64,000 bases of DNA from the sequence record NC_024125.2, one strand, 5' to 3'. The stretch comes from Escherichia phage vB_EcoM_112. Made by a program: the position numbers and the translations under genes. Position 1 is the first letter of the stretch; each line of letters begins with the position of its first letter. Positions 1,315 through 41,005 of the stretch are shown here, piece after piece. The notes below the pieces were generated by a model, which was given only the letters and a program-made list of their open reading frames with translations, ran no database searches and was not told the DNA's origin.

Positions 1315-2598
1315 ATGGCTAAAATCAACGAACTTCTGCGCGAATCAACCACAACGAATAGCAACTCAATCGGTCGCCCAAATCTCGTTGCTTTGACTCG
1401 CGCTACCACTAAATTAATATATTCTGACATTGTAGCAACGCAAAGAACTAATCAACCTGTTGCTGCTTTTTATGGTATCAAATACCTTAACCCAGACAAT
1501 GAATTTACATTTAAAACTGGTGCTACTTATGCTGGCGAAGCTGGATATGTAGACCGAGAACAAATCACAGAATTAACAGAAGAGTCTAAATTAACTCTCA
1601 ATAAGGGCGATTTATTCAAATATAATAATATCGTTTATAAAGTATTAGAAGATACACCATTTGCTGATATTGAAGAAAGCGACTTAGAGTTAGCTCTTCA
1701 GATTGCAATTGTTCTTTTAAAGGTTCGTCTATTTTCTGACGCAGCGTCAACAAGCAAATTTGAAAGCTCTGATAGTGAAATCGCGGATGCTAGATTCCAG
1801 ATTAATAAATGGCAAACCGCAGTTAAATCTCGCAAACTTAAAACTGGCATCACAGTTGAATTAGCACAAGATTTAGAAGCAAATGGATTCGATGCTCCTA
1901 ATTTCTTGGAAGATTTGCTTGCAACTGAAATGGCAGATGAAATCAATAAAGACATTCTGCAGTCTTTGATTACAGTGTCAAAACGCTATAAAGTTACAGG
2001 AATTACTGATAGTGGATTCATCGATTTGAGTTATGCATCTGCTCCTGAAGCTGGTCGTTCATTATACCGAATGGTATGTGAAATGGTTTCGCATATCCAA
2101 AAAGAATCAACTTATACAGCAACGTTCTGTGTTGCTTCAGCTCGTGCCGCTGCGATTCTTGCTGCATCAGGTTGGTTAAAACATAAACCAGAAGATGATA
2201 AATATCTTTCACAAAATGCCTATGGGTTCTTAGCTAATGGTTTACCGCTTTATTGCGATACTAACAGCCCATTAGATTATGTAATCGTTGGCGTAGTAGA
2301 AAATATCGGTGAAAAAGAAATTGTTGGATCAATTTTCTATGCTCCGTATACAGAAGGTCTCGACTTAGATGACCCTGAACATGTAGGTGCATTTAAAGTT
2401 GTTGTTGATCCAGAAAGCTTGCAACCGTCTATCGGTTTATTAGTTAGATATGCTTTATCTGCAAATCCTTATACCGTAGCAAAAGATGAAAAAGAAGCAA
2501 GAGTAATTGATGGTGGAGACATGGATAAAATGGCGGGCCGTTCAGATTTGTCTGTTTTATTAGGTGTTAAGCTACCAAAAATTATCATTGATGAATAA
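1315..2598 (+). CDS. 24: Capsid vertex protein gp24 (gp23 paralog)
   Basis: 427 aa, same length as T4 gp24; preceded by TATAAATA late promoter and SD GGAAAG; capsid-fold paralog of upstream gp23. Confidence 0.92.
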   Translation: MAKINELLRESTTTNSNSIGRPNLVALTRATTKLIYSDIVATQRTNQPVAAFYGIKYLNPDNEFTFKTGATYAGEAGYVDREQITELTEESKLTLNKGDLFKYNNIVYKVLEDTPFADIEESDLELALQIAIVLLKVRLFSDAASTSKFESSDSEIADARFQINKWQTAVKSRKLKTGITVELAQDLEANGFDAPNFLEDLLATEMADEINKDILQSLITVSKRYKVTGITDSGFIDLSYASAPEAGRSLYRMVCEMVSHIQKESTYTATFCVASARAAAILAASGWLKHKPEDDKYLSQNAYGFLANGLPLYCDTNSPLDYVIVGVVENIGEKEIVGSIFYAPYTEGLDLDDPEHVGAFKVVVDPESLQPSIGLLVRYALSANPYTVAKDEKEARVIDGGDMDKMAGRSDLSVLLGVKLPKIIIDE

Positions 2599-2604
2599 AA
2601 CAAA

Positions 2605-2626
2605 GGGACCGAAAGGTCCCTTTTTA
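2605..2626. terminator. Bidirectional terminator between gene 24 and rnlB
   Basis: GGGACCGAAAGGTCCC hairpin flanked by A-run and T-run. Confidence 0.75.
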
Positions 2627-2627
2627 T

Positions 2628-3632
2628 TTAGCTCACCAACTCAATCCAAGCTGGACGAAGTACATCTTGTACCATTTTAACTAATTCCTTTTTAATCAAA
2701 GAAGGATTATCTGCTTGAGTTAGAGTAATACCTTCACGAGAAGTTTCTTCCAAAATATCTTGAACAGTTAGCCCCATCACCTTTCCAAAATCTTTAGGAC
2801 CAATTTCGCCAATTTTAGAAATAACGTTATTTACTCGGTTCAGTGTAACGTAACAAGCTAAAATTCCCACCAATTTGTTATTGGCTTCTGATAGCTCAAC
2901 TTTAGCTTTAATAGGCTTATCAGACTTTTTCTTTTCACTAAATTTAGAATTCTTGCATTTGATAGCGACACGATTTCCATTACGAAGCCAAGAAGGATAA
3001 CAAGGTTTCAATACATATCCTTCAGCGGTAAATACTTCGCCTTTTGCTTCGGCATTCCAGACGCATTTATTTGCATCAACTAATCCAGCATGGTCTACTG
3101 TAAAATTATAATCTTGGACGACAGAATCTAAATCATTTGGCAATTTAATAAGCTCTTCAAATTTACCGCGACCTAAAAGTGGAGCCATTTTAAATTTAAA
3201 TGTATTGCAGAATGATTCCATCATATAATCGTCGACATAAGTCACATCACCACTTTCTGTAGTGACAATAATGTCAAATACATAAAAATCTTTATCGCCA
3301 TAATCGACATTCTTCTGAATGCCAGGTCCAGCGAATTCGCCAAAGACTTGATAAGATACAACTGCTGAAGTTTCCATAATATCTTGTACTGCTTTAATGG
3401 AATCAGCGTAATTCTTTAAAATAATTTCATACCCAAAGAAATCTTCAGCAGGAAGAATTGGTCCAGTACGTTTAGCGCAAGTTACTTTATCACGCTCAAT
3501 AATCAATGAGAAATTTGTACCATGAATCTTTTCACGAGCTACCCATTCGCCGCCAGTCAATCCCAAGCTATAAAGTTTTTCAATAAATTTAGAGTTGTAA
3601 TGATTTTCAAGACTGCTATACTTTTTAAACAT
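2628..3632 (-). CDS. rnlB: RNA ligase 2
   Basis: 334 aa; N-terminus [16 protein letters not shown]...[10 protein letters not shown] contains nucleotidyltransferase motif I (KxHG); matches remembered T4 Rnl2. Confidence 0.9.
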
Positions 3633-3641
3633 AATTAATCC

Positions 3642-3920
3642 TCAAAATGTAATTTCTAACCAATCACCATCACGCTGATCACTATTAACTTTAAAGCTGA
3701 ATCCTTCTTTTCTCAGCCAATCACCAATTTCTTCAGTAATCAATTTATCACGAGCAATACAATAATAATTAAAATGTGTTTTACCTTGTTCAGCTGCTTT
3801 ATTAGCAAGTTCTGAAAAATCTTTAATAAAACACTCTAGCTTAAACTGTTTACTTTTAAGTGCTTTTTCGCGTAATTGATTAGCAAAAGATTCATTTTCA
3901 TAAAGATCATACTGTTCCAT
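3642..3920 (-). CDS. Hypothetical protein (T4 24.2 position)
   Basis: 92-aa ORF, synteny between rnlB and hoc. Confidence 0.6.
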   Translation of the reverse strand: MEQYDLYENESFANQLREKALKSKQFKLECFIKDFSELANKAAEQGKTHFNYYCIARDKLITEEIGDWLRKEGFSFKVNSDQRDGDWLEITF

Positions 3921-4122
3921 TTTTCACCTTTTTATTAATATGTCTTTTTCTATAGACAACTTTTTCTCGAGTCTCAAATTTATTCTTAGCAGTCATAGCT
4001 CGAGCCCATAATACAGCCACTTCTTTCGCCTGTAAGTTCAATTCACGAGCAATTTCAATGAATGACTTTCCAGACTCATGGAGTGTAAACACCACAACCT
4101 CAGTTCTCATAATCAATCTCAT
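3907..4122 (-). CDS. Hypothetical protein (T4 24.3 position)
   Basis: 71-aa ORF, basic, synteny. Confidence 0.55.
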   Translation of the reverse strand: MRLIMRTEVVVFTLHESGKSFIEIARELNLQAKEVAVLWARAMTAKNKFETREKVVYRKRHINKKVKNGTV

Positions 4123-4190
4123 GTTATCGAGTTGGTGCCATTATATACATCATTTTCTGATTGTGTTTTGTGTGCTTTCAAAATGAAGAA

Positions 4191-4206
4191 AGGGGCCGAA
4201 GCCCCT
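4191..4206 (-). terminator. Hairpin terminator downstream of hoc
   Basis: AGGGGCCGAAGCCCCT. Confidence 0.6.
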
Positions 4207-4211
4207 TATGA

Positions 4212-5342
4212 TTATGGATAGGTATAGATGATACCAGTTTCTAAAGCAGTTTTATGAATGATGTATCCATTACGCGATTCTTGGACATCAACTTCTGGAT
4301 AATCTTTCATCATCTTCTGAAGAGTGTAACGATGCAGGTAGTATTTACTATCTGGATCTTCAGTTTTCCAATCTTTACCTTCTTCAGTCATTTTTTGGAT
4401 TTCATCCATAACCCACCAACCGCACCAGATGTAAGCTGAAGTACGATGTGGAAGAGGATGAACATAAGGTAATTCACCTTCTGGTTCCGGAGCAACTTTA
4501 TCAGTTACCTGAACTTGACCTTCTGCCGTAATAGTTTTGCTATCATAATCAGCAGCAGTAACAGTTGCAGTAACTTCAATAGTTTGACTTCCAATAGATG
4601 AGGTATCAACGGTATATACATTAGTTGACCCTTCTACAGGAGAAGAATCTTTCTTCCATGAATAAGCAATTTGCGCTTCTTCTGGAGCATTAGTGACATT
4701 AGCGGTAAATGTAGCCGAAGCATCTTGCTGCACGTTAATAGAAGGAGGAGTCAATGTAACCTGTGGATTCATTGTCTTCTTATTAACCGTTAATGACACT
4801 TCATTAGAAGTAACTTCCTTTGCATCATAATCTGTCGCGGTTACTTGAGCCACACACTTAATTCTTTTTACCCCGCTTTCGGCAGGAGTATAATTGAATG
4901 TAGCAGAAGTTGCTTCGCCCACAGGAGAACCGTCAACGTACCATTGATACGTAGCAGATGCACCTGATGGCTGTGAAGCTAAGGCAGCGGTAAATTCAAC
5001 AGCTGTTCCGATTACTCCTTCCGGAGGACTATTAGGAGTTACAGCTAAGGTAGTCGTTTGTGTCTTATTTTGAACTGTGATAGTTGTAGTAGCTTCTGCT
5101 GTTTCAGCTTCAGCTTCTGGAACTGTATTTGTTGCAACTACTTTAATAGTCTTTTGTCCAGCAGGTCCTTTTAATACATAATCAAAAGTTGCTTCAGCTC
5201 CATCTTGTGGAGCATCATCTACAGTCCAAGCATAGGTAATAGTTCCACTTCCAGTTTCACCACTGGGTGTAGCAGTAAACTGCTGAGTCTGATCTATAAC
5301 TCCAGTAGGTGTTTTAGGAGTTATATCAACTGTAAAAGCCAT
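4212..5342 (-). CDS. hoc: Highly immunogenic outer capsid protein Hoc (Ig-like domains)
   Basis: 376 aa (T4 Hoc length); repeated T/S/V-rich beta-strand Ig-like segments; synteny. Confidence 0.9.
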   Translation of the reverse strand: MAFTVDITPKTPTGVIDQTQQFTATPSGETGSGTITYAWTVDDAPQDGAEATFDYVLKGPAGQKTIKVVATNTVPEAEAETAEATTTITVQNKTQTTTLAVTPNSPPEGVIGTAVEFTAALASQPSGASATYQWYVDGSPVGEATSATFNYTPAESGVKRIKCVAQVTATDYDAKEVTSNEVSLTVNKKTMNPQVTLTPPSINVQQDASATFTANVTNAPEEAQIAYSWKKDSSPVEGSTNVYTVDTSSIGSQTIEVTATVTAADYDSKTITAEGQVQVTDKVAPEPEGELPYVHPLPHRTSAYIWCGWWVMDEIQKMTEEGKDWKTEDPDSKYYLHRYTLQKMMKDYPEVDVQESRNGYIIHKTALETGIIYTYP

Positions 5343-30196: not shown

Positions 30197-31784
<1,588 letters not shown>

Positions 31785-31811
31785 AATAAAATGGGCCTTA
31801 CGGCCCACTCC

Positions 31812-32314
31812 TTAAAAATATTTTTTAAAACTCATCATAACTTTATCATCAACATCATTATCAATCTGTGCAACAAGGTAAGATGACAGTTCTACTTCTT
31901 GTGGCGCGGATTGAACATTATCAGAATTAAGATATTCACGAATCCAAGGATACGGATGTTTAACCGGAGCATCGGTAATTGGGCATGGAAGACCACACTG
32001 TTTCATACGAGATACAGTTAAGTAATCAATAAAGCTCCACATGCTATTTGTATTTAATCCAGGAACATCGCCATCTTTAAATAAATGAACTGCCCAATCT
32101 TTTTCTTGGCGGTTAACTTCCATGAAAATATCAACTGCTTCTTGTTCACACTCTTGAGCAATTTTAACCCATTCATCGCCATCAGTGCCAAGTTGAAGTT
32201 GACGAATAATATATTGAGTGCCTTTAAGGTGAAGCTGCTCATCACGTGCAATGAACTTCATAATCTTGGCATTACCTTCCATGATTTCCATGTTCTTATG
32301 GAAGTTGAAAGTAC
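31812..32314 (-). CDS. nrdB: Ribonucleotide reductase beta subunit, exon 2
   Basis: MEIMEGNAKIMKFIARDEQLHLKGTQY aligns to E. coli NrdB [20 protein letters not shown]; exon start inferred at 32314 so that junction reads YVSFA-C-TFNF. Confidence 0.85.
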
Positions 32315-33405
32315 CGTTATGTTCGATTGAGCTCGCTAATTCTCAACCCGTTCTCTTATGAACTGCTACATATTACTATGCAGACCAGACTATATCACAA
32401 TCCCAGAGGGATTCTCCCCATTTCGAGTCGCTTGACCCTACGTCCGAAGACTAGTCGTTGAACCTTGCTTTGCAATTGTCGCCGTGCCATCGTTTATATG
32501 TTGATGGTGATAAATCTTTCTTATCACAATATGGACAATTCAATTGAATTCTATTTGGATTTAATTTACATCTGTCATTATGTTTTAGATAAAATCCAGG
32601 ACCTTTACCAATGTGACCGCAGAAATCACATGTGATTTCTTTTTGTGCAGGATGGGTCCCGTTCTTAACCATTTCTAATGTTTTTGCTGATGTTCTTTTC
32701 TTATGGTCTTCTGACAAGAAATGATGTGAACCGTCATTTACCCGTTTTGATTGAGTTTCTGACTGCATTTTACCACCGCAAAATACATGAGTACCTTCTT
32801 TTATAGCTGCAATATTGCGTTCTTTAACTTTTGCAATATGCTCAGCTTGTTGAAAATTATGTATACCTAATGCAACTCTATTTAAATTAGATTTACGCTG
32901 TATTTCACCATCTAAAAGATGAAATGTACCATTTTCTATCTTAGATTTAATAGAGGCAATATTTTTAGCTCGTACTTCAGGGATATTAAAAATCTGGATT
33001 TCTCTAGATTTTGCGGCTTTAGAAGCTAATTCAGAAATTTCTTCAGGAGAATATTTCATTCTAAGCTTTATAGCATGACAAGCCTGGTAATCTTTTTGAG
33101 CTAAATGTATATCATAATGTTCCTGTATAGAAAGGCACATCAAATTATCTAAATCATTATTTTCACGGTTACCGTCTTTATGATGGATTTCGTATGTTCT
33201 TCCATCAGAATCTTTAGGTATAGGTCCGTTAGCATCTATCCAAATTTTTCTATAGTTCAATTGTGCATCCTCTTAAAAGTATAATCATATTTATATTATA
33301 CTAATTAAAGGTGCAAGCAAAACCTTGGCTGCTAGTTTTCCTATAAAGGACTTTCCAGCAATTAAAGGAGTTTTCGATAAACGTTACCGTTTAAAGGCGC
33401 ATTTT
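32315..33405 (-). ncRNA. Group I self-splicing intron in nrdB (1091 nt) carrying I-TevIII ORF
   Basis: Interrupts conserved NrdB sequence; exon 1 ends in U, intron ends in G; joining restores conserved FYVSFAC; internal HNH ORF. Confidence 0.8.
32451..33260 (-). CDS. I-TevIII: HNH homing endonuclease, full length (I-TevIII-like)
   Basis: 269 aa; HNH motif EIHHKDGNRENNDLDNLMCLSIQEH; C-terminal Cys-rich zinc-finger-like region (CDFCGH...CPYCDKK). Confidence 0.82.
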   Translation of the reverse strand: MNYRKIWIDANGPIPKDSDGRTYEIHHKDGNRENNDLDNLMCLSIQEHYDIHLAQKDYQACHAIKLRMKYSPEEISELASKAAKSREIQIFNIPEVRAKNIASIKSKIENGTFHLLDGEIQRKSNLNRVALGIHNFQQAEHIAKVKERNIAAIKEGTHVFCGGKMQSETQSKRVNDGSHHFLSEDHKKRTSAKTLEMVKNGTHPAQKEITCDFCGHIGKGPGFYLKHNDRCKLNPNRIQLNCPYCDKKDLSPSTYKRWHGDNCKARFND

Positions 33406-34081
33406 ACGCAAAAGATACATAAAAACGAATAGCTTCTAAGGCATTAATAACGTGCAAACAGAGGTAAAGAGATTTCATTAAAGCACGTTTAGCTTCGGCT
33501 TCTTGCTTAATAGCTCGGTTTAAACGAAAGTCGGCATCAGGAGATTCTTTAGCTAGTTCTACAAATTCTTTAGCATTTTCCCATTCACGGGTTTTAACCA
33601 AGACATCATCATAATAGCGACCAATAGATTCAGCACGTTTCATGATAGCTTCATCTAATACAATCTCATCAAATACCTTTGACGGATCAGTATAAAGATT
33701 TCGCATGATATGTGTATATGAACGGCTGTGAATAGTTTCACTAAAAGTCCACGTAGCAATCCATGTATCAAGGCTTGGGTCTGAAATTAATGACATAAGT
33801 ACAGCAGATGGCGCACGACCCTGAATGCTATCCAAAAGTGATTGATACTTCAGATTATTAGTAAAAATATTTTGCTGATACTGAGGAAGCTTATTAAACT
33901 GTGCAGCATCCATCATCAAGTTTACTTCTTCAGGACGCCAGAAAAATGACAACTGCTTTTCGGTCAAATCTTCAAAAACTTTATGACGTTGAATATCATA
34001 ACGCGCAATACCAAGACCTGAACCAAAAAACATGGGTTCTTTTAAAACATCAACTGGATTTGTATTAAAAACTGTGCTCAT
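33406..34081 (-). CDS. nrdB: Ribonucleotide reductase beta subunit, exon 1
   Basis: 225 codons ending ...EAIRFYVSFA, matching class Ia R2 up to the conserved FYVSFA segment. Confidence 0.85.
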
Positions 34082-34132
34082 AAATTTTCCGCTTAGTTAA
34101 TAGTTGGTGACTCGTCCGTGAGTCAAATTATA

Positions 34133-35122
34133 TCATAATTTACAGGATGAACAATCTTCAGCTTTTGGAGTTTCTATTTCATAATCATCAGTACCAGAAC
34201 CATCACGGGTATTATGATAATAGAAATTTTTTCCGCCAAAATACCAGAAATACAAAAGGTCATCAATCATTATTGACATTGGAACCTTTCCTTTAGGGAA
34301 GATTTGGGGGTCATAGTATGTATTCGCTGAAGCTGATTGACATACCCATTTCAGCATAATAGCTACCTGCGTAAGATAAGGTTTATTACCTTTCTTAGCT
34401 AATTTCCATGTATAATCATAGAGGTCTATGTTATGCTCAATATTGGGCACGACTTGATTAAAGGAGCCCTCTTTTGATTCTTTAACAGAGACTGGTCCAC
34501 GTGGAGGCTCGATACCGTTTGTACTGTTAGAAACTTGGGAAGATGACTCACATGGCATAAGTGCTGATAATGTGCTATTACGGATGCCAAAGAGCTTAAG
34601 GTCTTCCCGCAGCGACGACCAGTCACAAACGTATTTTGGAGCTGCGATTTGGTCAATCTTTTTATTGTACCAGTCGATAGGTAGTTCGCCTCGAGACCAA
34701 CGAGTGTCTGAATAATATTCGCAAGGTCCTTTTTCTTTGGCGAGCTTAATGGATGCTTTAATGAGTCCATACTGTAATCTCTCAAATAGTTCATGTGTTA
34801 AATCGTTAGCATCTTCATAAGAAGCAAAGTTACTTGCCAGCCAAGCTGCATAGTTAGTAACACCTACACCAAGGTTTCGACGCTTTTTAGCTTTTTCTGC
34901 TTCAGGAACTGGATATCCTTGGTAATCCAAAAGATTATCAAGAGCACGAACTTGAACTTCTGCCAATTCATTAATTTTATCTTGGTCTTGCCAGTCAAAA
35001 TTATCTAGTACGAATGCAGAGAGAGTACAAAGCCCCACTTCTCCCTTGTTTTCAATAACTTTTATTGTAGTATACTCATCATCTTCGTAAAATTCATCTA
35101 CAAATTCATAATCAATATTCAT
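34133..35122 (-). CDS. nrdA: Ribonucleotide reductase alpha subunit, C-terminal piece (NrdA-b-like)
   Basis: 329 aa; from ...IENKGEVGLCTLSAF aligns to E. coli NrdA DENGEIALCTLSAF onward, including C-terminal CxxC (DCSSCKL); has its own ATG and a 22-aa non-homologous N-terminal extension. Confidence 0.85.
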   Translation of the reverse strand: MNIDYEFVDEFYEDDEYTTIKVIENKGEVGLCTLSAFVLDNFDWQDQDKINELAEVQVRALDNLLDYQGYPVPEAEKAKKRRNLGVGVTNYAAWLASNFASYEDANDLTHELFERLQYGLIKASIKLAKEKGPCEYYSDTRWSRGELPIDWYNKKIDQIAAPKYVCDWSSLREDLKLFGIRNSTLSALMPCESSSQVSNSTNGIEPPRGPVSVKESKEGSFNQVVPNIEHNIDLYDYTWKLAKKGNKPYLTQVAIMLKWVCQSASANTYYDPQIFPKGKVPMSIMIDDLLYFWYFGGKNFYYHNTRDGSGTDDYEIETPKAEDCSSCKL

Positions 35123-35960
35123 TTAATTCTTTTACCTTTTTTCTAGTAATTCCTAAAGCTTTAGATGCTCGATGTATTGATTGATATTCTATACCGTTTA
35201 TTTTTACAGCAATTAAGTTATGGGGTTTTAATCCCTTTGGATGAGGTTTACTGACGAAAACTAAATTATCAAGTTCTGAAATCTTATCCAATTTCTTACA
35301 CTTAAATCCTTTGTGATGCGACCGTTTACCTTTACAAACGGCTGACATTGCAGATGGATTTAAATTATGCTCTTTACAAAATTCGTTAAGACCTCGATGA
35401 ATTTCCTCATGACCATCCGGAAATGTAAACACCCAAGATGTTTGAAGTCGAGATTTAACTTCTGGAGACATAGGAATACCTTTGTTCCAAGCTGGTTTGC
35501 CTTTATTATTTTCAGATACAGAAATAGCCAATTTTCTTCTAAGCCACCCATGGCGTTTATTGGTGTTCTTTCGTTCAATATTATCTTCAGAATAAACACA
35601 CATCATATTAGCGGCAAATATCAATTTATGATTATTTGGATATATCTTTACTAATAATTGATGAGCTATGTAATGCTCTTCTGGTGTCAAATCTACCAGG
35701 TTTTCCTTTGTATCAGAACCACCAATACACAGAGGTATAATATGGTGTGATTCGGTATAGCAATCTAATTTTCTATTCTTAGCTTTAGAAATAAGGTTAT
35801 TGTAAATTTTAAAATAATCCATAACTTTTCCTCTTGTTATGGATTATTTATTAACGGTCTGTGTACTTTATTTGCTTTGAATTATACCGCCAGGATTAGC
35901 TTCATAAAACTTAGCTACATCCGACTTCTTAATTTTGATTAAACGGGTTTGTTGGCTATT
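35057..35960 (-). mobile_element. ~0.9 kb insertion carrying the HNH endonuclease gene that interrupts nrdA
   Basis: Boundaries defined by loss of NrdA homology: after ...CCEIAIPTNDV (35961) and before IENKGEVGLC (35056). Confidence 0.75.
35112..35822 (-). CDS. Free-standing HNH homing endonuclease inserted in nrdA (MobE-like)
   Basis: 236 aa; HNH motif ESHHIIPLCIGGSDTKENLVDLTPEEHYIAH; NUMOD-like GKPAWNKGIPMSPEVKSRL; C-terminal helix-turn-helix-like segment; own SD AGAGGAAAAG. Confidence 0.85.
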   Translation of the reverse strand: MDYFKIYNNLISKAKNRKLDCYTESHHIIPLCIGGSDTKENLVDLTPEEHYIAHQLLVKIYPNNHKLIFAANMMCVYSEDNIERKNTNKRHGWLRRKLAISVSENNKGKPAWNKGIPMSPEVKSRLQTSWVFTFPDGHEEIHRGLNEFCKEHNLNPSAMSAVCKGKRSHHKGFKCKKLDKISELDNLVFVSKPHPKGLKPHNLIAVKINGIEYQSIHRASKALGITRKKVKELNEY

Positions 35961-37301
35961 CACATCATTTGTTGGAATAGCAATTTCACAGCACAAGTTA
36001 CTCTGACGAATAGGTGCCTTTTCACGAATAAATGGAGTATAGTTATTCGTATTATCAATGAACTGCACATAAATCCTTGCTGTTCCTGAACGTTCAGTCA
36101 TGAGCAATTCAAATAGTTCACGGGCTTTAATACGCTTTTTACGAATATTAGGGTCTTTTTCTGCTGCTTCGTATAATTCACGGAAACGGTCTTGGTCTTT
36201 AAAATAAGAATAATAAAGCTCGCCACCCATTTCATGCGGACTGAACAAAGTAATGTAATCGTTCTTTCCGAATCGTTCCATCATCAAATCATTCAGTTGA
36301 ACACCATAATCCATATGACGAATGCGGTTTTCTTCTACGCCTTTGTTATTTTTCAAAACGAGAAGATTTTCAACTTCCAAATGCCAAATAGGATAATAAG
36401 CAGTAGCAGCGCCGCCACGAATTCCACCCTGTGAACATGATTTAACAGCAGTCTGAAAATGTTTCCAAAAAGGAATAACACCAGTATGGCGTACTTCACC
36501 CATGCCAATCTTAGAACCTTCAGCACGAATCATACCAACGTTAATACCAATTCCAGCGCGTTTAGAGATATATTCAACAATTGAAGCGGAAGCCTTATTG
36601 ATAGACTTCAATGAATCTCCTGCCTCAATAACAACACATGAACTAAACTGTCGAGTCGGAGTACGGCAACCAGCCATAATAGGAGTTGGCAATGAAATCT
36701 GTCGAGTAGATACTGCTTCATAAAAACGAATAACATGTTTTAATCTATCAACAGGTTCATCTTGATGCAATGCCATTCCAATAGTCATAAATGCAAACTG
36801 TGGAGTTTCATAAATTTGACCAGTGGTTTTATCTTTAACTAGATATTTTTCTTTTAATTGCATCGCCCCGGAATAAGTAAATTCCATATCCCGTTCGTGC
36901 TTAATTTTTGATTCTAAAAATGTAATTTCTTCTGCTGAATATTTTGACAATAATTCAGGGTCATATTTACCTTCATTTACACAGTAAGAAATATGGTCAA
37001 TAAATGAACGTGGTTCATACTGCCCATAAACATGCTTACGAAGAGCAAACATTAAACAGCGTGCAGCTACATATTGATAATCAGGTTCTTCAACCGAAAT
37101 AGAATTCGCAGCAGCCTTAATGACAATAGTCTGAATGTCATCAGTTGTCATTCCATCACGGAGATATGATTTAATATTTTCATATAATTCATAAGGATCT
37201 ACTGATGTTCCCTCAGCTGCCCAAGATAAAACTTTAATAATTTTTTGTGGGTCAAAGCTCTGAGAAACACCACTACTTTTGATAACATTAATTAATTGCA
37301 T
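35868..37301 (-). CDS. nrdA: Ribonucleotide reductase alpha subunit, N-terminal piece (NrdA-a-like)
   Basis: 477 aa; class Ia R1 homology through active-site region PIRQSNLCCEIAIPTNDV, then 30 non-homologous residues and a stop. Confidence 0.85.
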   Translation of the reverse strand: MQLINVIKSSGVSQSFDPQKIIKVLSWAAEGTSVDPYELYENIKSYLRDGMTTDDIQTIVIKAAANSISVEEPDYQYVAARCLMFALRKHVYGQYEPRSFIDHISYCVNEGKYDPELLSKYSAEEITFLESKIKHERDMEFTYSGAMQLKEKYLVKDKTTGQIYETPQFAFMTIGMALHQDEPVDRLKHVIRFYEAVSTRQISLPTPIMAGCRTPTRQFSSCVVIEAGDSLKSINKASASIVEYISKRAGIGINVGMIRAEGSKIGMGEVRHTGVIPFWKHFQTAVKSCSQGGIRGGAATAYYPIWHLEVENLLVLKNNKGVEENRIRHMDYGVQLNDLMMERFGKNDYITLFSPHEMGGELYYSYFKDQDRFRELYEAAEKDPNIRKKRIKARELFELLMTERSGTARIYVQFIDNTNNYTPFIREKAPIRQSNLCCEIAIPTNDVNSQQTRLIKIKKSDVAKFYEANPGGIIQSK

Positions 37302-37618
37302 AAGTCCTCAACTTGAAAATCGTCTTTAAACAATCGGTTAACTATATGAGCTATTATATCACCATGACACGGCTTTGGTTTACATGTGCATCCTAGCCTC
37401 ATTCCACGTAAAGGCTCTAAATGTGCTTTAGTTATTTCTCCGGATTTAATTCGACGTATAAAATCTTTTTTGAATAATTCAATGGCAGCCTCTCGGCTGC
37501 CAGCATCTTTACCGACGTAATTTCCCCAAAATGTACCACGGTGAATATTAACATCAAAGTCGGATTTATATTTATTCACTACCCGGCATAAACGGTCCGC
37601 GCGGTGATAATTCGGCAT
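37292..37618 (-). CDS. Hypothetical protein (nrdA.1 position)
   Basis: 108-aa ORF between td and nrdA. Confidence 0.6.
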
Positions 37619-37835
37619 ATTGTTTTTCCGTTAAAACAGTAATATCGTAGTAACAGTCAGAAGAAGTTTTAACTGTGGAAATTTTATTATCAAAATACTC
37701 ACGAGTCATTTTATGAGTATAATATTTTTTGCCATAAATGATAATAGGCTGATTTGGTCCTGGAACTTCTAACTCGCTTGGGTTAGGAAGTGTAAAAAGA
37801 ACTACACCAGAAGTGTCTTTAAATCGTAAAATCAT
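37572..37835 (-). CDS. Hypothetical protein (nrdA.2 position)
   Basis: 87-aa ORF; 5' part overlaps neighbour so the true start may be internal. Confidence 0.5.
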
Positions 37836-38143
37836 ATTGCCATTTTCCCTTTAATTGCTGGATGCGATTCATAATTTTCAAGGATAAAATCTTTCGGTTT
37901 CATGTATTCAGTTAACCAGTAAAGCTGTGTTTCGGTGTCACAATTTCCAAACTCTATAGGCCAATCAATTTTAAGTTCACACAGTTCTTTAGGCTCACGA
38001 CGTAAAATTTCTTTACATTGCTCAGTATGATTCATATAGATGTGAGTATTACCACCAGAAAATATCAAATCTCCTGGGATAAGATTACACATCTTAGCCA
38101 CAATATGTGTCAAGGCAGCGTACGAGGCAATGTTAAACGGTAG
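37832..38143 (-). CDS. td: Thymidylate synthase, exon 2
   Basis: [36 protein letters not shown] matches ThyA C-terminal half; exon start CTACCGTTTAAC follows intron 3' end ...CATAATG. Confidence 0.9.
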
Positions 38144-38585
38144 CATTATGTTCAGATAAGGTCGTTAATCTTACCCCGGAATTATATCCAGCTGCATGTC
38201 ACCATGCAGATCAGACTATATCTCCATCTTGATAAAGCAAGATGTCTATCGTTTCGAGTCACTTGACTCTACTCCCTAAAGGGATAGTCGTTAGGCATTT
38301 ATGTAGAACCAATTCCAGTTATCAGATTTTACACGATAAGTAACTAATCCAGACGAAATTTTAAAATGCCTCTTCCATCTCTTTTCAAAATCTTTAGCAC
38401 TTCCTACATATACTTTATTGTTTAAAGTATTTTTAATCTGATAAATTCCGCTTTTCATAAATACCTCTTTAAATATAGAAGTATTATTAAAGGGCAGTCC
38501 TACAATTTAGCACGGGATTGTCTACTAGAGAGGTTCCCCGTTTAGATAGATTACAAGTATAAGTCACCTTATACTCAGGCCTCAA
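38144..38585 (-). ncRNA. td group I intron, shortened (442 nt) by deletion within the I-TevI ORF
   Basis: 5' end TAATTGAGGCCTGAGTATAAGGTGACTTATACTTGTAATCTATCTAAACGGGGAACC and 3' end ...GGGGTAAGATTAACGACCTTATCTGAACATAATG match the T4 td intron as I recall it. Confidence 0.85.
38291..38458 (-). pseudogene. I-TevI: I-TevI remnant: in-frame fusion of N-terminal 34 and C-terminal 21 codons (55 aa)
   Basis: Hand-translated MKSGIYQIKNTLNNKVYVGSAKDFEKRWKRHFKISSGLVTYRVKSDNWNWFYINA; keeps GIY-YIG start and C-terminal tail but lacks catalytic and DNA-binding domains. Confidence 0.75.
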
Positions 38586-39960
<1,375 letters not shown>

Positions 39961-39970
39961 ATTATTTTCC

Positions 39971-40213
39971 TTAAACAGACTTTTTCACAATTTTCCAATC
40001 AGCTTTAAACTGATTAACATCAGAATGATAAATCCAGAATCCTGCGCTTTCTCCGTCTTCATAAAGAGGACACCCATCGCATTCATCTTCCCATCCCATA
40101 TCACGTAAAAGATGTTCAGCTTTTTCAACGAGCTCAGAATCTTTACCGATGATATTAAAATACCATTTACCTCTAACTTCTGAATCTTTGATGCTTTGGC
40201 GTTGTAATCTCAT
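39971..40213 (-). CDS. Hypothetical protein (frd.2 position; start moved to MRLQRQ)
   Basis: SD GAGGAG upstream of ATG at 40213; the longer track ORF would begin inside the early promoter at 40225-40256. Confidence 0.55.
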   Translation of the reverse strand: MRLQRQSIKDSEVRGKWYFNIIGKDSELVEKAEHLLRDMGWEDECDGCPLYEDGESAGFWIYHSDVNQFKADWKIVKKSV

Positions 40214-40224
40214 TTTATTCTCCT

Positions 40225-40256
40225 CATGTAGTTGATAGGGTAATAGTATCACACTA
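40225..40256 (-). promoter_or_regulatory. Early promoter GTTTAC...TACTAT with CTATCAACTAC leader
   Basis: Upstream of the frd.2 re-called start. Confidence 0.5.
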
Positions 40257-40271
40257 CTACCCTACTGTAAA

Positions 40272-40658
40272 CTACTTTTTGAAAGTTTTTCGCAAAAGTT
40301 CAATGATTTCATCTACATTGTTTTCGTCTACAATGCAGTGAATTTTTGTTACACCAGAAACTATACCTTCATTAGCGGATTGAGGCTTTTCTAAAGTTAC
40401 CTCAGTAAAGTATTTGAATTCTTCAGAGTAAATCTCAAAATACGTCTCAAGTGGGCCACCCGCCATGTATTCAGTGCCATCTTCCATAGTTACACGTACC
40501 ACACATTCACCAGCACAATCATCACTTTCCATTTCATCTACAACAAAACTAGGTCCGTGCTTCTCTATTAAATTTAGCATCATTACATTGCAACGGCACT
40601 CGTTAGCAAAGTCATTTTTAAATAAAGGGTTAATGATATAAGTTTTTCCAACTTCCAT
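40272..40658 (-). CDS. Hypothetical protein (frd.3 position)
   Basis: 128-aa ORF. Confidence 0.6.
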   Translation of the reverse strand: MEVGKTYIINPLFKNDFANECRCNVMMLNLIEKHGPSFVVDEMESDDCAGECVVRVTMEDGTEYMAGGPLETYFEIYSEEFKYFTEVTLEKPQSANEGIVSGVTKIHCIVDENNVDEIIELLRKTFKK

Positions 40659-40704
40659 TTTGATTTCCTCATTTTAACGGGGCTATCAAATAGCCCCTTG
40701 ATAA

Positions 40705-40932
40705 TTATTGTTCAATCAGTCCCATGTAAAATTCTGCGTCTTCAGAACCCATGTCATCACAATATTCATTAGCCATAAAGAGGGTGAGGTCTTCAAGAGG
40801 ACCTTTAATAACGATTTGAATACTCCAAAACTTAGAATCTTGCACGCTTGTGATACTAAGTTCAGGATAACGATTACGAATAATTTCTTCGATATATTCA
40901 AAATCAACGATGTCAATATCAACTTTAGCCAT
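40705..40932 (-). CDS. Hypothetical 75-aa acidic protein (start MAKVDIDIV)
   Basis: SD AAGAGGAAA upstream; early promoter cassette at 40976-41005. Confidence 0.55.
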
Positions 40933-40975
40933 ATTATTTTCCTCTTTAATCATCAGCAGTATTGCCGATAGTTGT

Positions 40976-41005
40976 ATAGTACCATGGAAGGACAAGGATG
41001 TAAAC
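40976..41005 (-). promoter_or_regulatory. Early promoter cassette (GTTTAC-18-TACTATAC) with A/T-rich UP element
   Basis: Shares ~75 bp with 58261-58336. Confidence 0.6.

What the first reader, a model, noticed from the sequence alone, without database searches (positions are those of the whole stretch)
34133..37301. nrdA is split into two ORFs by a free-standing HNH endonuclease insertion
Class Ia RNR large-subunit homology runs through the active-site region (...IRQSNLCCEIAIPTNDV) in ORF 35868-37301, then continues for 30 non-homologous codons to a stop. A 236-aa HNH endonuclease ORF with its own SD follows (35112-35822). NrdA homology resumes only in a third ORF (34133-35122) that starts with its own ATG and a 22-aa non-homologous leader before IENKGEVGLCTLSAF. 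The three ORFs are in different frames, so this is not an intein. Only 138 nt and 55 nt of non-ORF insert flank the HNH gene, which is short for a group I intron core. The homologous parts sum to about 754 codons, the size I recall for intact T4 NrdA. The arrangement resembles the Aeromonas phage Aeh1 case, where a mobE insertion splits nrdA into two pieces that still assemble; here it sits in a T4-like coliphage backbone, and no HNH gene lies in the nrdA-nrdB intergenic space (51 bp), where T4 carries mobE. The HNH protein also has NUMOD-like and C-terminal HTH-like segments.
Basis: partly seen in the sequence, partly recalled or inferred. Interest (0 to 1): 0.85.

Follow-up and report, generated by a model that had tools for sequence, protein, structure and literature searches.

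The report
Split nrdA with mobile endonuclease cassette
In this T4-like coliphage a mobile HNH endonuclease gene cuts the ribonucleotide reductase large-subunit gene in two, bringing two short, oppositely charged tails homologous to those that reassemble the same split enzyme in Aeromonas phage Aeh1; it is a real but known kind of arrangement.

Summary
On the minus strand, nrdA-a (37301-35868, 477 aa), an HNH gene (35822-35112, 236 aa) and nrdA-b (35122-34133, 329 aa) replace a single 754-codon nrdA. Compared with intact nrdA, 926 nt (35955-35030) replace 22 nt.

It is not a group I intron. Rfam finds the td and nrdB introns in the same window but nothing in the insert. It is not an intein either: stop codons, a frame change and no intein blocks.

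It is homologous to the Aeh1 nrdA-a/mobE/nrdA-b cassette, not merely similar:
- The HNH protein is 45% identical to Aeh1 MobE over 227 aa.
- The geometry matches (45/46-nt spacer, 11/14-nt overlap).
- The basic C-terminal and acidic N-terminal tails align significantly, with identical spacing to the catalytic motifs.
- A hairpin covers the endonuclease start site, as in Aeh1.

The cassette is about 99% identical between phages whose nrdA flanks are only 77-79% identical. It occurs in 33 of about 800 T-even records, so it looks recently mobile.

A 2022 preprint already mentions "MobE_split" insertions (including HY01) with conserved tails, marked unpublished. Function is inferred from Aeh1 biochemistry. 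Verdict: new member of a known kind, moderate interest.

The parts
35868..37301 (-). nrdA-a: the N-terminal 477-aa fragment of the class Ia RNR large subunit. It holds the ATP-cone, the first half-barrel with C222 (E. coli C225 equivalent), and the finger-loop residues N435/C437/E439 (E. coli N437/C439/E441).
   Evidence: ORF list. Pfam and NCBIfam PRK09103 profile positions 4-452. 98.8% DNA identity to AR1 nrdA up to 35956. Residue mapping; the E. coli numbering is from Crona et al., PMC3045599.
35871..35954 (-). C-terminal tail (CTE) of NrdA-a, 28 aa: QQTRLIKIKKSDVAKFYEANPGGIIQSK. It is basic (net charge about +4) and is followed by TAA at 35870-35868.
   Evidence: It is absent from intact nrdA. 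It is homologous to the Aeh1 NrdA-a tail (LIKIKKSDVAKF against LFKVKKSEVDKF; 4 of 20000 shuffles score as well). The amino-acid sequence is invariant in the 7 related loci read, and the only nucleotide variants are synonymous.
35812..35849 (-). RNA hairpin over the endonuclease translation start. The 5' arm is 35849-35836. The loop (35835-35826) holds the Shine-Dalgarno sequence AAGAGGAAAA. The 3' arm is 35825-35812 and includes the AUG at 35822-35820.
   Evidence: A 13-14 bp perfect stem appears in both the MFE and centroid folds. It is kept in all 5 related loci folded. Aeh1 has a hairpin of unrelated sequence that sequesters the mobE RBS. This is a published regulatory scheme (PMC2988022).
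35845..35852 (-). AATAAATA, a one-mismatch match to the T4 late-promoter motif TATAAATA, overlapping the start of the hairpin's 5' arm. Transcripts starting just downstream would lack most of that arm. This is a candidate only.
   Evidence: Motif search. An exact TATAAATA sits at a comparable distance upstream of the I-TevIII ORF in the same window (33295). The late-promoter-plus-hairpin scheme is described for T4 intron endonucleases and Aeh1 mobE (PMC2988022). It was not tested here.
35112..35822 (-). Free-standing HNH homing endonuclease gene (236 aa) of the MobE_split type. It has an N-terminal HNH nuclease, a central I-HmuI NUMOD-like module and a weak C-terminal HTH-like segment.
   Evidence: PHROG 655 'homing endonuclease', E 9e-59. 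PF22083 is above its cut-off and PF01844 HNH is just below. 45% identity to Aeh1 MobE over 227 aa, E 4e-57, and 45% to T4 MobE over the first 130 aa. H26, H27 and N41 are invariant and H50 and H54 nearly so in 13 relatives. There are 41 synonymous against 30 nonsynonymous codon variants among alleles.
34133..35122 (-). nrdA-b: the C-terminal 329-aa fragment. It holds the second half-barrel with C32 (E. coli C462 equivalent), Y269/Y270 (Y730/Y731) and the C-terminal C324/C327 pair. Its ATG overlaps the HNH 3' end by 11 nt, and an AAGG sits at 35138-35135.
   Evidence: ORF list. Profile positions 452-759 of PRK09103. 98.1% DNA identity to AR1 nrdA from 35029 onward. Residue mapping. Aeh1 nrdA-B starts in the same way, with a 14-nt overlap and an SD about 12 nt upstream.
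35042..35122 (-). N-terminal tail (NTE) of NrdA-b, 27 aa: MNIDYEFVDEFYEDDEYTTIKVIENKG. It is acidic (net charge about -7.5). The last 5 residues resemble the native loop of Yersinia phage TG1-type nrdA.
   Evidence: Homologous to the Aeh1 NrdA-b tail (YEDDEYTT against YEDEEYTT; 0 of 20000 shuffles score as well) with identical spacing to the LCTL motif. A variant tail occurs in metagenome fragment P0121. TG1 loop comparison.
35030..35955 (-). The whole insert relative to intact T-even nrdA: 926 nt that replace 22 nt coding for S-PDA-EIG.
   Evidence: BLASTN against AR1 nrdA.
35009..35969 (-). The tract shared almost identically with phage PTE-Eco05 (6 mismatches in 961 nt), whose nrdA flanks are only 77-79% identical. 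This is the apparent mobile unit, with flanking conversion of at most about 14 nt and 21 nt.
   Evidence: MAFFT alignment with per-segment identities and mismatch positions.

Best explanation
This is a genes-in-pieces nrdA made by a mobile cassette. The cassette reads [basic C-terminal tail + stop] - [45-nt spacer with hairpin and SD] - [MobE-type HNH homing endonuclease] - [overlapping ATG + acidic N-terminal tail]. It sits between the codons for the catalytic finger loop (C437/E439) and the next barrel strand (C32 of NrdA-b).

Proposed mechanism:
1. The three ORFs are co-transcribed from the promoters upstream of nrdA.
2. [quoted passage not shown] No RNA or protein splicing takes place.
3. 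The two half-barrels associate into an alpha-a/alpha-b heterodimer with a composite active site. The oppositely charged tails promote assembly of (alpha-a/alpha-b)2 and of the holoenzyme with NrdB2, as shown biochemically for the homologous Aeh1 proteins.
4. Translation of the endonuclease is held down on early and middle transcripts by a hairpin that buries its AUG. It may be released on late transcripts that start inside the hairpin.
5. In mixed infections the endonuclease cuts intact nrdA alleles. Repair then copies the cassette, tails included, so the element carries its own remedy for the damage it causes.

Shown here: the anatomy, homology of every cassette part to Aeh1, the absence of intron and intein signatures, the hairpin, purifying selection on the endonuclease, and near-identity of the cassette across diverged backbones.

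Inferred: separate translation, assembly and activity, cleavage specificity, and late-promoter use.
For: - Anatomy and boundaries.
- The halves are exactly complementary on the class Ia NrdA profile (4-452 and 452-759).
- Aeh1 has the same geometry: nrdA-A 473 aa, 46-nt gap, mobE 237 aa, 14-nt overlap, nrdA-B 323 aa. The window has 477 aa, 45 nt, 236 aa, 11 nt, 329 aa.
- HNH against Aeh1 MobE: 45% over 227 aa, E 4e-57.
- The tails are homologous (shuffle tests 4/20000 and 0/20000), carry the same charges (+3.8/-7.5 against +5.8/-9.4), and have the same spacing to PT and LCTL.
[quoted passage not shown] The Aeh1 holoenzyme is fully active (Crona et al., PMC3045599).
- No group I intron hit in the insert at E <= 10, while the td intron (E 1.6e-7) and the nrdB intron (E 1e-5) are found.
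- A hairpin covers the AUG and SD and is kept in relatives. Aeh1 has an analogous one.
- All three ORFs are intact in all 8 genomes read.
- CTE nucleotide variants are all synonymous. HNH alleles show 41 synonymous against 30 nonsynonymous variants.
- The cassette is 99-100% identical to PTE-Eco05 inside flanks that are 77-79% identical. The two HNH alleles do not follow the backbone.
- Distribution is sporadic: 33 of about 800 matching records, in two T-even lineages including a Mosigvirus.
Against: - There are no expression, proteomic or enzymatic data for this phage or any T-even carrier. Function rests on homology to Aeh1, where NrdA identity is only 49-58%.
- From my own knowledge, T4 nrdA is dispensable in laboratory hosts, so loss of function would be tolerated.
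- The SD for nrdA-b (AAGG) lies 12-13 nt from the ATG, which is longer than optimal.
- The late-promoter match has one mismatch and is untested.
- Endonuclease activity and its target are not shown. General recombination among co-infecting T-evens could move the cassette without it.
Confidence: 0.85

Rival explanations
1. [quoted passage not shown]
For: The td and nrdB genes next door do carry group I introns with endonuclease ORFs. A precise deletion of the insert would restore a 754-codon frame (sequence inspection).
Against: RF00028 gives no match on the insert at E <= 10, either in a 10-kb scan or in a 1-kb lax-filter scan, while both neighbouring introns are detected. Only 133 nt and 82 nt flank the ORF. 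Both flanks are coding sequence, conserved at the protein level with Aeh1. nrdA-b has its own ATG overlapping the HNH stop. The homologous Aeh1 locus is reported as independently translated polypeptides without an intron (PMC3045599, PMC3653736).
Confidence: 0.03
2. The tails are a split intein, active or degenerate, as in a 'fractured gene'. Trans-splicing would join the halves.
For: Split intein plus HNH arrangements do interrupt nrdA only 10 codons upstream, in Yersinia phage TG1 and in IMG/VR contigs. Crona et al. raised a degenerate intein origin for the Aeh1 tails. The NTE and the C-inteins are both acidic.
Against: The tails are 28 and 27 aa, far shorter than an N-intein of about 100 aa. 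There is no Cys/Ser-start block, no terminal HN followed by Cys/Ser/Thr, and no Pfam intein or Hint hit. Local alignments of the tails to the TG1-type and Npu intein halves are no better than shuffles. The Aeh1 tails persist in the mature proteins.
Confidence: 0.03
3. nrdA is simply inactivated by a recent endonuclease insertion. The ORFs look intact only because too little time has passed, and the phage relies on the host RNR.
For: T4 nrd genes are non-essential in the laboratory (my own knowledge). The HY01 annotators left both halves unannotated. No functional data exist for any T-even carrier.
Against: The tails and cassette geometry are conserved between Aeh1 and T-even phages even though HNH identity is only 45%. 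The cassette alleles have diverged (HNH 89% nucleotide identity), yet all 8 genomes keep all three ORFs, and the CTE shows only synonymous change. The Aeh1 enzyme is fully active and depends on its tails.
Confidence: 0.08

Closest known systems
Aeromonas phage Aeh1 nrdA-a / mobE / nrdA-b (Friedrich et al. 2007, cited through PMC2988022; Crona et al. 2011, PMC3045599)
   Same: - Same insertion point between the finger loop and the next barrel strand.
- Same gene order, spacer length and overlap of the endonuclease end with the nrdA-b start.
- Endonuclease homologous over its full length (45%).
- Basic C-tail and acidic N-tail that are homologous, with identical spacing.
- A hairpin over the endonuclease translation start.

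   Different: - The host phages are T-even coliphages (Tequatrovirus, Mosigvirus), not Cinqassovirus.
- In the window nrdA keeps its T4 position next to td and nrdB. In Aeh1 the nrdAB cluster lies elsewhere.
- The hairpin sequence is unrelated, and it buries the AUG with the SD in the loop, rather than burying the SD in the stem.
- The tail ends differ (YEANPGGIIQSK against KLMVATDQYKSLRY).
- Nothing has been tested experimentally here.
'MobE_split' insertions noted in bioRxiv 10.1101/2022.08.31.505936
   Same: [quoted passage not shown] Its File S4 lists MobE_split_HY01 and a 'B. cereus' WP_100771429.1 sequence of the window's allele type.
   Different: It is only a passing remark plus an endonuclease alignment. 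It gives no boundaries, no tail statistics, no evidence of cassette transfer and no regulatory hairpin.
T4 MobE (free-standing HNH between nrdA and nrdB)
   Same: Homologous N-terminal HNH nuclease domain (45% over about 130 aa, E 3.5e-31) in the same RNR operon. Many IMG/VR relatives sit just downstream of an intact nrdA.
   Different: T4 MobE is intergenic, splits no gene, is 141 aa long and lacks the C-terminal half shared by the window protein and Aeh1 MobE. Its reported target is nrdB (PMC2988022). The window has no gene in the 51-nt nrdA-b to nrdB gap.
T4 mobA / gene 39-60 split topoisomerase cassette
   Same: A Mob-family HNH gene splits an essential enzyme gene and leaves tail-like extensions on both products. 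It is proposed as a general way to neutralise the split (PMC3045599; preprint).
   Different: The target gene is different, the cassette also carries the 50-nt translational bypass element, and the tails are unrelated in sequence.
Fractured genes: split intein plus free-standing endonuclease in nrdA (Dassa et al. 2009, PMC2677866). Seen here in Yersinia phage TG1 and IMG/VR loci L031 and L036-L042
   Same: nrdA is broken in the same active-site region, 10 codons upstream, with an HNH gene between the halves. The endonuclease end overlaps the downstream half.
   Different: Those halves end and begin with recognisable intein blocks (C[VL][ST]GE/D......ILVHN|C) and are expected to be ligated by trans-splicing. 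The window's tails have no such blocks and no similarity to them.

Membership tests
Aeh1-type genes-in-pieces nrdA (CTE-mobE-NTE cassette) | nrdA is interrupted between the C439/E441 finger loop and the strand carrying C462, so catalytic cysteines are split between two ORFs | tested here: met
   C222 and C437/E439 are in NrdA-a and C32 is in NrdA-b. The profile breakpoint is at position 452 of 761 in both halves. Aeh1 has C219/C431 and C31.
Aeh1-type genes-in-pieces nrdA (CTE-mobE-NTE cassette) | The intervening gene is a free-standing HNH endonuclease homologous to Aeh1 MobE over its full length | tested here: met
   45% identity over 227 of 236 aa, E 4e-57. In the phage collection the C-terminal half matches at full length only in the 33 split-nrdA records and Aeh1.
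Aeh1-type genes-in-pieces nrdA (CTE-mobE-NTE cassette) | A basic C-terminal tail on NrdA-a and an acidic N-terminal tail on NrdA-b, both absent from intact NrdA | tested here: met
   The tails are 28 aa (charge +3.8) and 27 aa (charge -7.5) and are homologous to the Aeh1 tails (shuffle tests 4/20000 and 0/20000).
Aeh1-type genes-in-pieces nrdA (CTE-mobE-NTE cassette) | The halves are translated separately, with no RNA or protein splicing | not testable with these tools
   Supported indirectly: stop codons, nrdA-b's own ATG, no intron model hit and no intein blocks. RT-PCR and proteomics are needed.
Aeh1-type genes-in-pieces nrdA (CTE-mobE-NTE cassette) | The halves assemble into an active (alpha-a/alpha-b)2 beta2 enzyme, and the tails are required | not testable with these tools
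   Shown only for Aeh1 (PMC3045599).
Aeh1-type genes-in-pieces nrdA (CTE-mobE-NTE cassette) | An RNA hairpin occludes the endonuclease translation start, with a late promoter inside it | tested here: inconclusive
   The hairpin is present and conserved. The promoter is only a 7-of-8 motif match at 35852-35845.
Group I intron carrying a homing endonuclease ORF | A conserved catalytic core (P3-P9) detectable with RF00028 | tested here: not met
   No hit at E <= 10 on the insert. The td and nrdB introns of the same window score 40 and 34 bits.
Intein or split intein | An in-frame insertion or split halves with the N-terminal Cys/Ser block and a C-terminal HN followed by Cys/Ser/Thr | tested here: not met
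   Stops and a frame change. No Pfam intein hit. The tails are too short and no more similar to real nrdA split inteins than shuffles are.
HNH homing endonucleases of the Mob / I-HmuI type | An HNH catalytic motif plus modular NUMOD-like DNA-binding segments | tested here: met
   PF22083 scores 37.7 bits (cut-off 27). PF01844 HNH scores 18.2 bits, just under its cut-off of 21.4, but HH...N...H is conserved in 13 relatives. PHROG 655 gives E 9e-59. There is a weak PDB match to I-HmuI 1u3e (E 0.0066).
T4 MobE proper | [quoted passage not shown] | tested here: not met
   The gene lies inside nrdA, and the 51-nt intergenic space is empty.

The most novel reading that the evidence does not exclude
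The tail-endonuclease-tail module may be a third kind of self-neutralising mobile element, alongside introns and inteins. On this reading it homes as a unit into the nrdA active-site codons of distantly related phages (Cinqassovirus, Tequatrovirus, Mosigvirus) and carries a portable protein-complementation device instead of a splicing activity. The Aeh1 split would then be one member of an old, still active family with graded relatives in metagenomes, not a one-off transposition accident. T-even coliphages would give a tractable genetic system to test it.
Probability: 0.55. Interest if true: 0.55.

Novelty: new member of a known kind. Interest (0 to 1): 0.38.

Why it matters
The Aeh1 split reductase is the textbook case of a gene broken by a homing endonuclease that still works. 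Its tails were published as having no database matches and as the likely by-product of a single transposition event.

This window shows the same cassette, with homologous tails, in T4-like coliphages. It is almost identical between backbones that differ by more than 20%. That argues the tails travel with the endonuclease as part of the mobile unit.

It also moves the phenomenon into the T4 / E. coli system. There, crosses, tail mutagenesis, homing assays and enzyme assays are routine. Practically, annotators should not call the two halves pseudogenes, as happened for HY01.

Tried and rejected
1. Group I intron. Two Rfam scans found nothing in the insert, with positive controls nearby. Rejected.
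2. Intein or split-intein remnant. No Pfam hit, and alignments to real nrdA split inteins (TG1, L031, L039, Npu) are no better than shuffles. No support.
3. An autorepression operator resembling the homing site upstream of the endonuclease. Local alignment to the intact target is not significant. Dropped.
4. AlphaFold model of fused NrdA-a + NrdA-b to see how the tails pair. 
5. Searches of the 5.8-billion-protein database with tail-containing queries timed out five times, and one query was rejected as too short. Only the endonuclease query ran.
6. Genomic context of the metagenomic endonuclease relatives P0004-P0011.
7. Representative-library search with the 37-aa N-tail gave one fragment (P0121). 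Clustering at 50% identity probably hides split halves under intact NrdA representatives.
8. IMG/VR scan for the tail motif found only Aeh1 itself.
9. Genome papers for HY01, UFV-AREG1 and fPS-2/fPS-90 do not discuss the split. Friedrich et al. 2007 is not held.

Full report
**Observation**

On the minus strand the window has three consecutive ORFs: 37301-35868 (477 aa), 35822-35112 (236 aa) and 35122-34133 (329 aa).

The first ORF carries the ATP-cone, the all-alpha domain and the first 221 positions of the RNR barrel. The third carries barrel positions 219-523. On the NCBIfam class Ia NrdA model the two halves cover positions 4-452 and 452-759 of 761. Their scores sum to 983 bits against a cut-off of 813.

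I compared the region with the intact nrdA of phage AR1. DNA identity is 98.8% up to window 35956 and 98.1% from 35029 onward. In between, 926 nt replace 22 nt. At the protein level T4/AR1 reads ...IPTNDVNS-PDA-EIGLCTLSAF. The window reads ...IPTNDVNS-QQTRLIKIKKSDVAKFYEANPGGIIQSK* and then MNIDYEFVDEFYEDDEYTTIKVIENKG-EVGLCTLSAF.

- nrdA-a and the HNH ORF share a frame, 45 nt apart with two in-frame TAA codons. Only nrdA-b is shifted.
- The tails are 28 and 27 aa.
- The flanks of the HNH ORF inside the insert are 133 nt and 82 nt.
- The HTH-like match is weak.

**Not an intron, not an intein**

An Rfam scan of 31000-41000 at E <= 10 finds the td intron (38192-38598, E 1.6e-7) and the nrdB intron (32366-32606, E 1e-5). 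It finds nothing in nrdA. A 1-kb scan of the insert with laxer filters gives only chance-level snoRNA matches.

The insert flanks are protein-coding and conserved as protein. nrdA-b has its own ATG, which overlaps the end of the HNH gene. Stop codons and the frame change exclude a contiguous intein.

The tails carry no intein blocks. They are no more similar to genuine nrdA split inteins than shuffled sequences are.

**Homology to Aeh1**

The Aeh1 locus has nrdA-A of 473 aa, a 46-nt gap, mobE of 237 aa, a 14-nt overlap and nrdA-B of 323 aa. The window has 477 aa, 45 nt, 236 aa, 11 nt and 329 aa.

The HNH protein is 45% identical to Aeh1 MobE over 227 residues (E 4e-57). It is 45% identical to T4 MobE over the N-terminal nuclease domain only.

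The tails align as follows:
- LIKIKKSDVAKF against LFKVKKSEVDKF.
- DEFYEDDEYTTIKV against YEVYEDEEYTTVEI.

Local-alignment scores for the two tails were reached by 4 and 0 of 20000 shuffles. The spacing is identical in both phages: nine residues from PT to the basic motif and eleven from YTT to LC. Net charges are +3.8 and -7.5 in the window, and +5.8 and -9.4 in Aeh1.

Crona et al. (PMC3045599) showed three things for Aeh1. [quoted passage not shown] Removing them lowers activity about 2000-fold through a dimerisation defect. Database searches at the time found no matches to the tails. The window supplies such matches.

**Regulation**

The 45-nt spacer and the first codons of the HNH gene form a 13-14 bp hairpin (35849-35812). 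The SD (AAGAGGAAAA) lies in its loop and the AUG in its 3' arm. The hairpin is kept in all five relatives I folded.

Aeh1 has a hairpin of unrelated sequence that buries the mobE SD. This matches the published scheme of an RBS-sequestering hairpin plus an internal late promoter, described for T4 intron endonucleases and Aeh1 mobE (PMC2988022).

A 7-of-8 match to the late-promoter motif (AATAAATA, 35852-35845) overlaps the start of the 5' arm. An exact TATAAATA sits at a comparable distance upstream of I-TevIII in the same window. The promoter assignment is inference only.

**Mobility**

Megablast finds about 800 T-even records that match nrdA. Thirty-three of them, about 27 distinct phages, carry the cassette. 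Examples are HY01, PEC04, UFV-AREG1, fPS-2, fPS-90, IME537 and F2, and also AV111, which is a Mosigvirus.

Against PTE-Eco05 the nrdA flanks are 77-79% identical. The tract 35969-35009 has only 6 mismatches in 961 nt.

There are two endonuclease alleles. They differ mainly in a block at 35472-35257, and they occur on both backbones.

All three ORFs are intact in the eight genomes I read. Nucleotide variants in the C-tail are all synonymous. Endonuclease variants are 41 synonymous against 30 nonsynonymous, which indicates purifying selection.

The 3' junction (VIENKGEVGLC) resembles the native loop of Yersinia phage TG1-type nrdA (AIENKREIGLC), with a 12-nt identity. This suggests donor-exon sequence carried along with the cassette.

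The metagenome protein database holds a graded series of full-length endonuclease relatives at 50-67% identity (P0004-P0012), lying between the window protein and Aeh1 MobE. Most end in ...LNEY or ...LNEI, the codons that overlap the nrdA-b start. Their contexts could not be retrieved.

**Prior knowledge**

The Aeh1 case is well studied. The genome papers of carrier phages do not mention the split.

[quoted passage not shown] Its supplementary alignment lists MobE_split_HY01. The finding is therefore real but is not a new kind of thing.

**Verdict**

This is a split, probably functional nrdA created by a mobile tail-endonuclease-tail cassette homologous to that of Aeh1. I put confidence at 0.85. 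Function and homing are inferred, not shown. It is a new member of a known kind, and its interest is moderate. The main value lies in evidence that the tails belong to the mobile unit, and in a tractable T4-like system in which to test this.

Noticed in passing
L094 (Yersinia phage TG1, KP202158 136000-142500): 1533-5180: nrdA of this Tegunavirus is broken 10 codons upstream of the MobE_split site by a split intein with a 316-aa HNH gene between the halves. The first half ends ...SNLCLSGESVVEI..., and the second begins VLKIEQLPLTIEVYDITVEDTHCFFADDILVHN|CAEIAIPT.... This is a 'fractured gene' in an isolated T-even-like phage, annotated only as two RNR CDSs.
   Followed up: partly
L031 54-3001; L036, L037, L039-L042 about 3-2954: These IMG/VR contigs were fetched through MobE-like genes that lie downstream of nrdA. 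Their nrdA is itself interrupted at SNLC|C. In L031 this is a split intein plus an HNH ORF. In L039 translation likewise shows intein-like ends on both halves, with stop-filled sequence between them. The active-site codons of nrdA are a hotspot for several kinds of mobile element.
   Followed up: partly
window 38192-38598 (minus strand): The td group I intron is only about 400 nt long. It keeps a 55-aa remnant of the I-TevI ORF (38458-38291, GIY-YIG start MKSGIYQIKN...). This looks like a deletion derivative of the T4 intron.
   Followed up: no
window 32451-33260 (minus strand), motif at 33295: The nrdB intron carries a full-length 269-aa I-TevIII-type HNH ORF. T4 itself has a truncated one. 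An exact late-promoter motif TATAAATA lies about 35 nt upstream.
   Followed up: no
window 35257-35472: The central, NUMOD-like part of the endonuclease gene is a mosaic block. HY01, IME537 and AV111 share one version. The window, PTE-Eco05, UoN_LDJ77_1 and BYEP01 share another. F2 is a hybrid. The pattern is independent of the phage backbone.
   Followed up: partly
proteins P0004-P0012, P0121 (metagenome database): These are full-length relatives of the endonuclease at 50-67% identity, plus a variant N-tail fragment (MNINYEFVDEFYEDEEYTTLQVIENKSEIGLC). They suggest a wider MobE_split family in uncultured phages. Their genomic context was not obtainable.
   Followed up: partly
L008 (phage IME537) 4688-5419: This cassette-bearing phage has an extra 244-aa 'hypothetical protein' ORF between nrdA-b and nrdB, at the canonical mobE site. 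Both sites can apparently be occupied at once. I did not identify the ORF.
   Followed up: no
supplementary file 13 of bioRxiv 10.1101/2022.08.31.505936: A protein labelled Bacillus cereus WP_100771429.1 is essentially the window's endonuclease allele. It is probably T-even phage DNA misassigned to a bacterial assembly.
   Followed up: no
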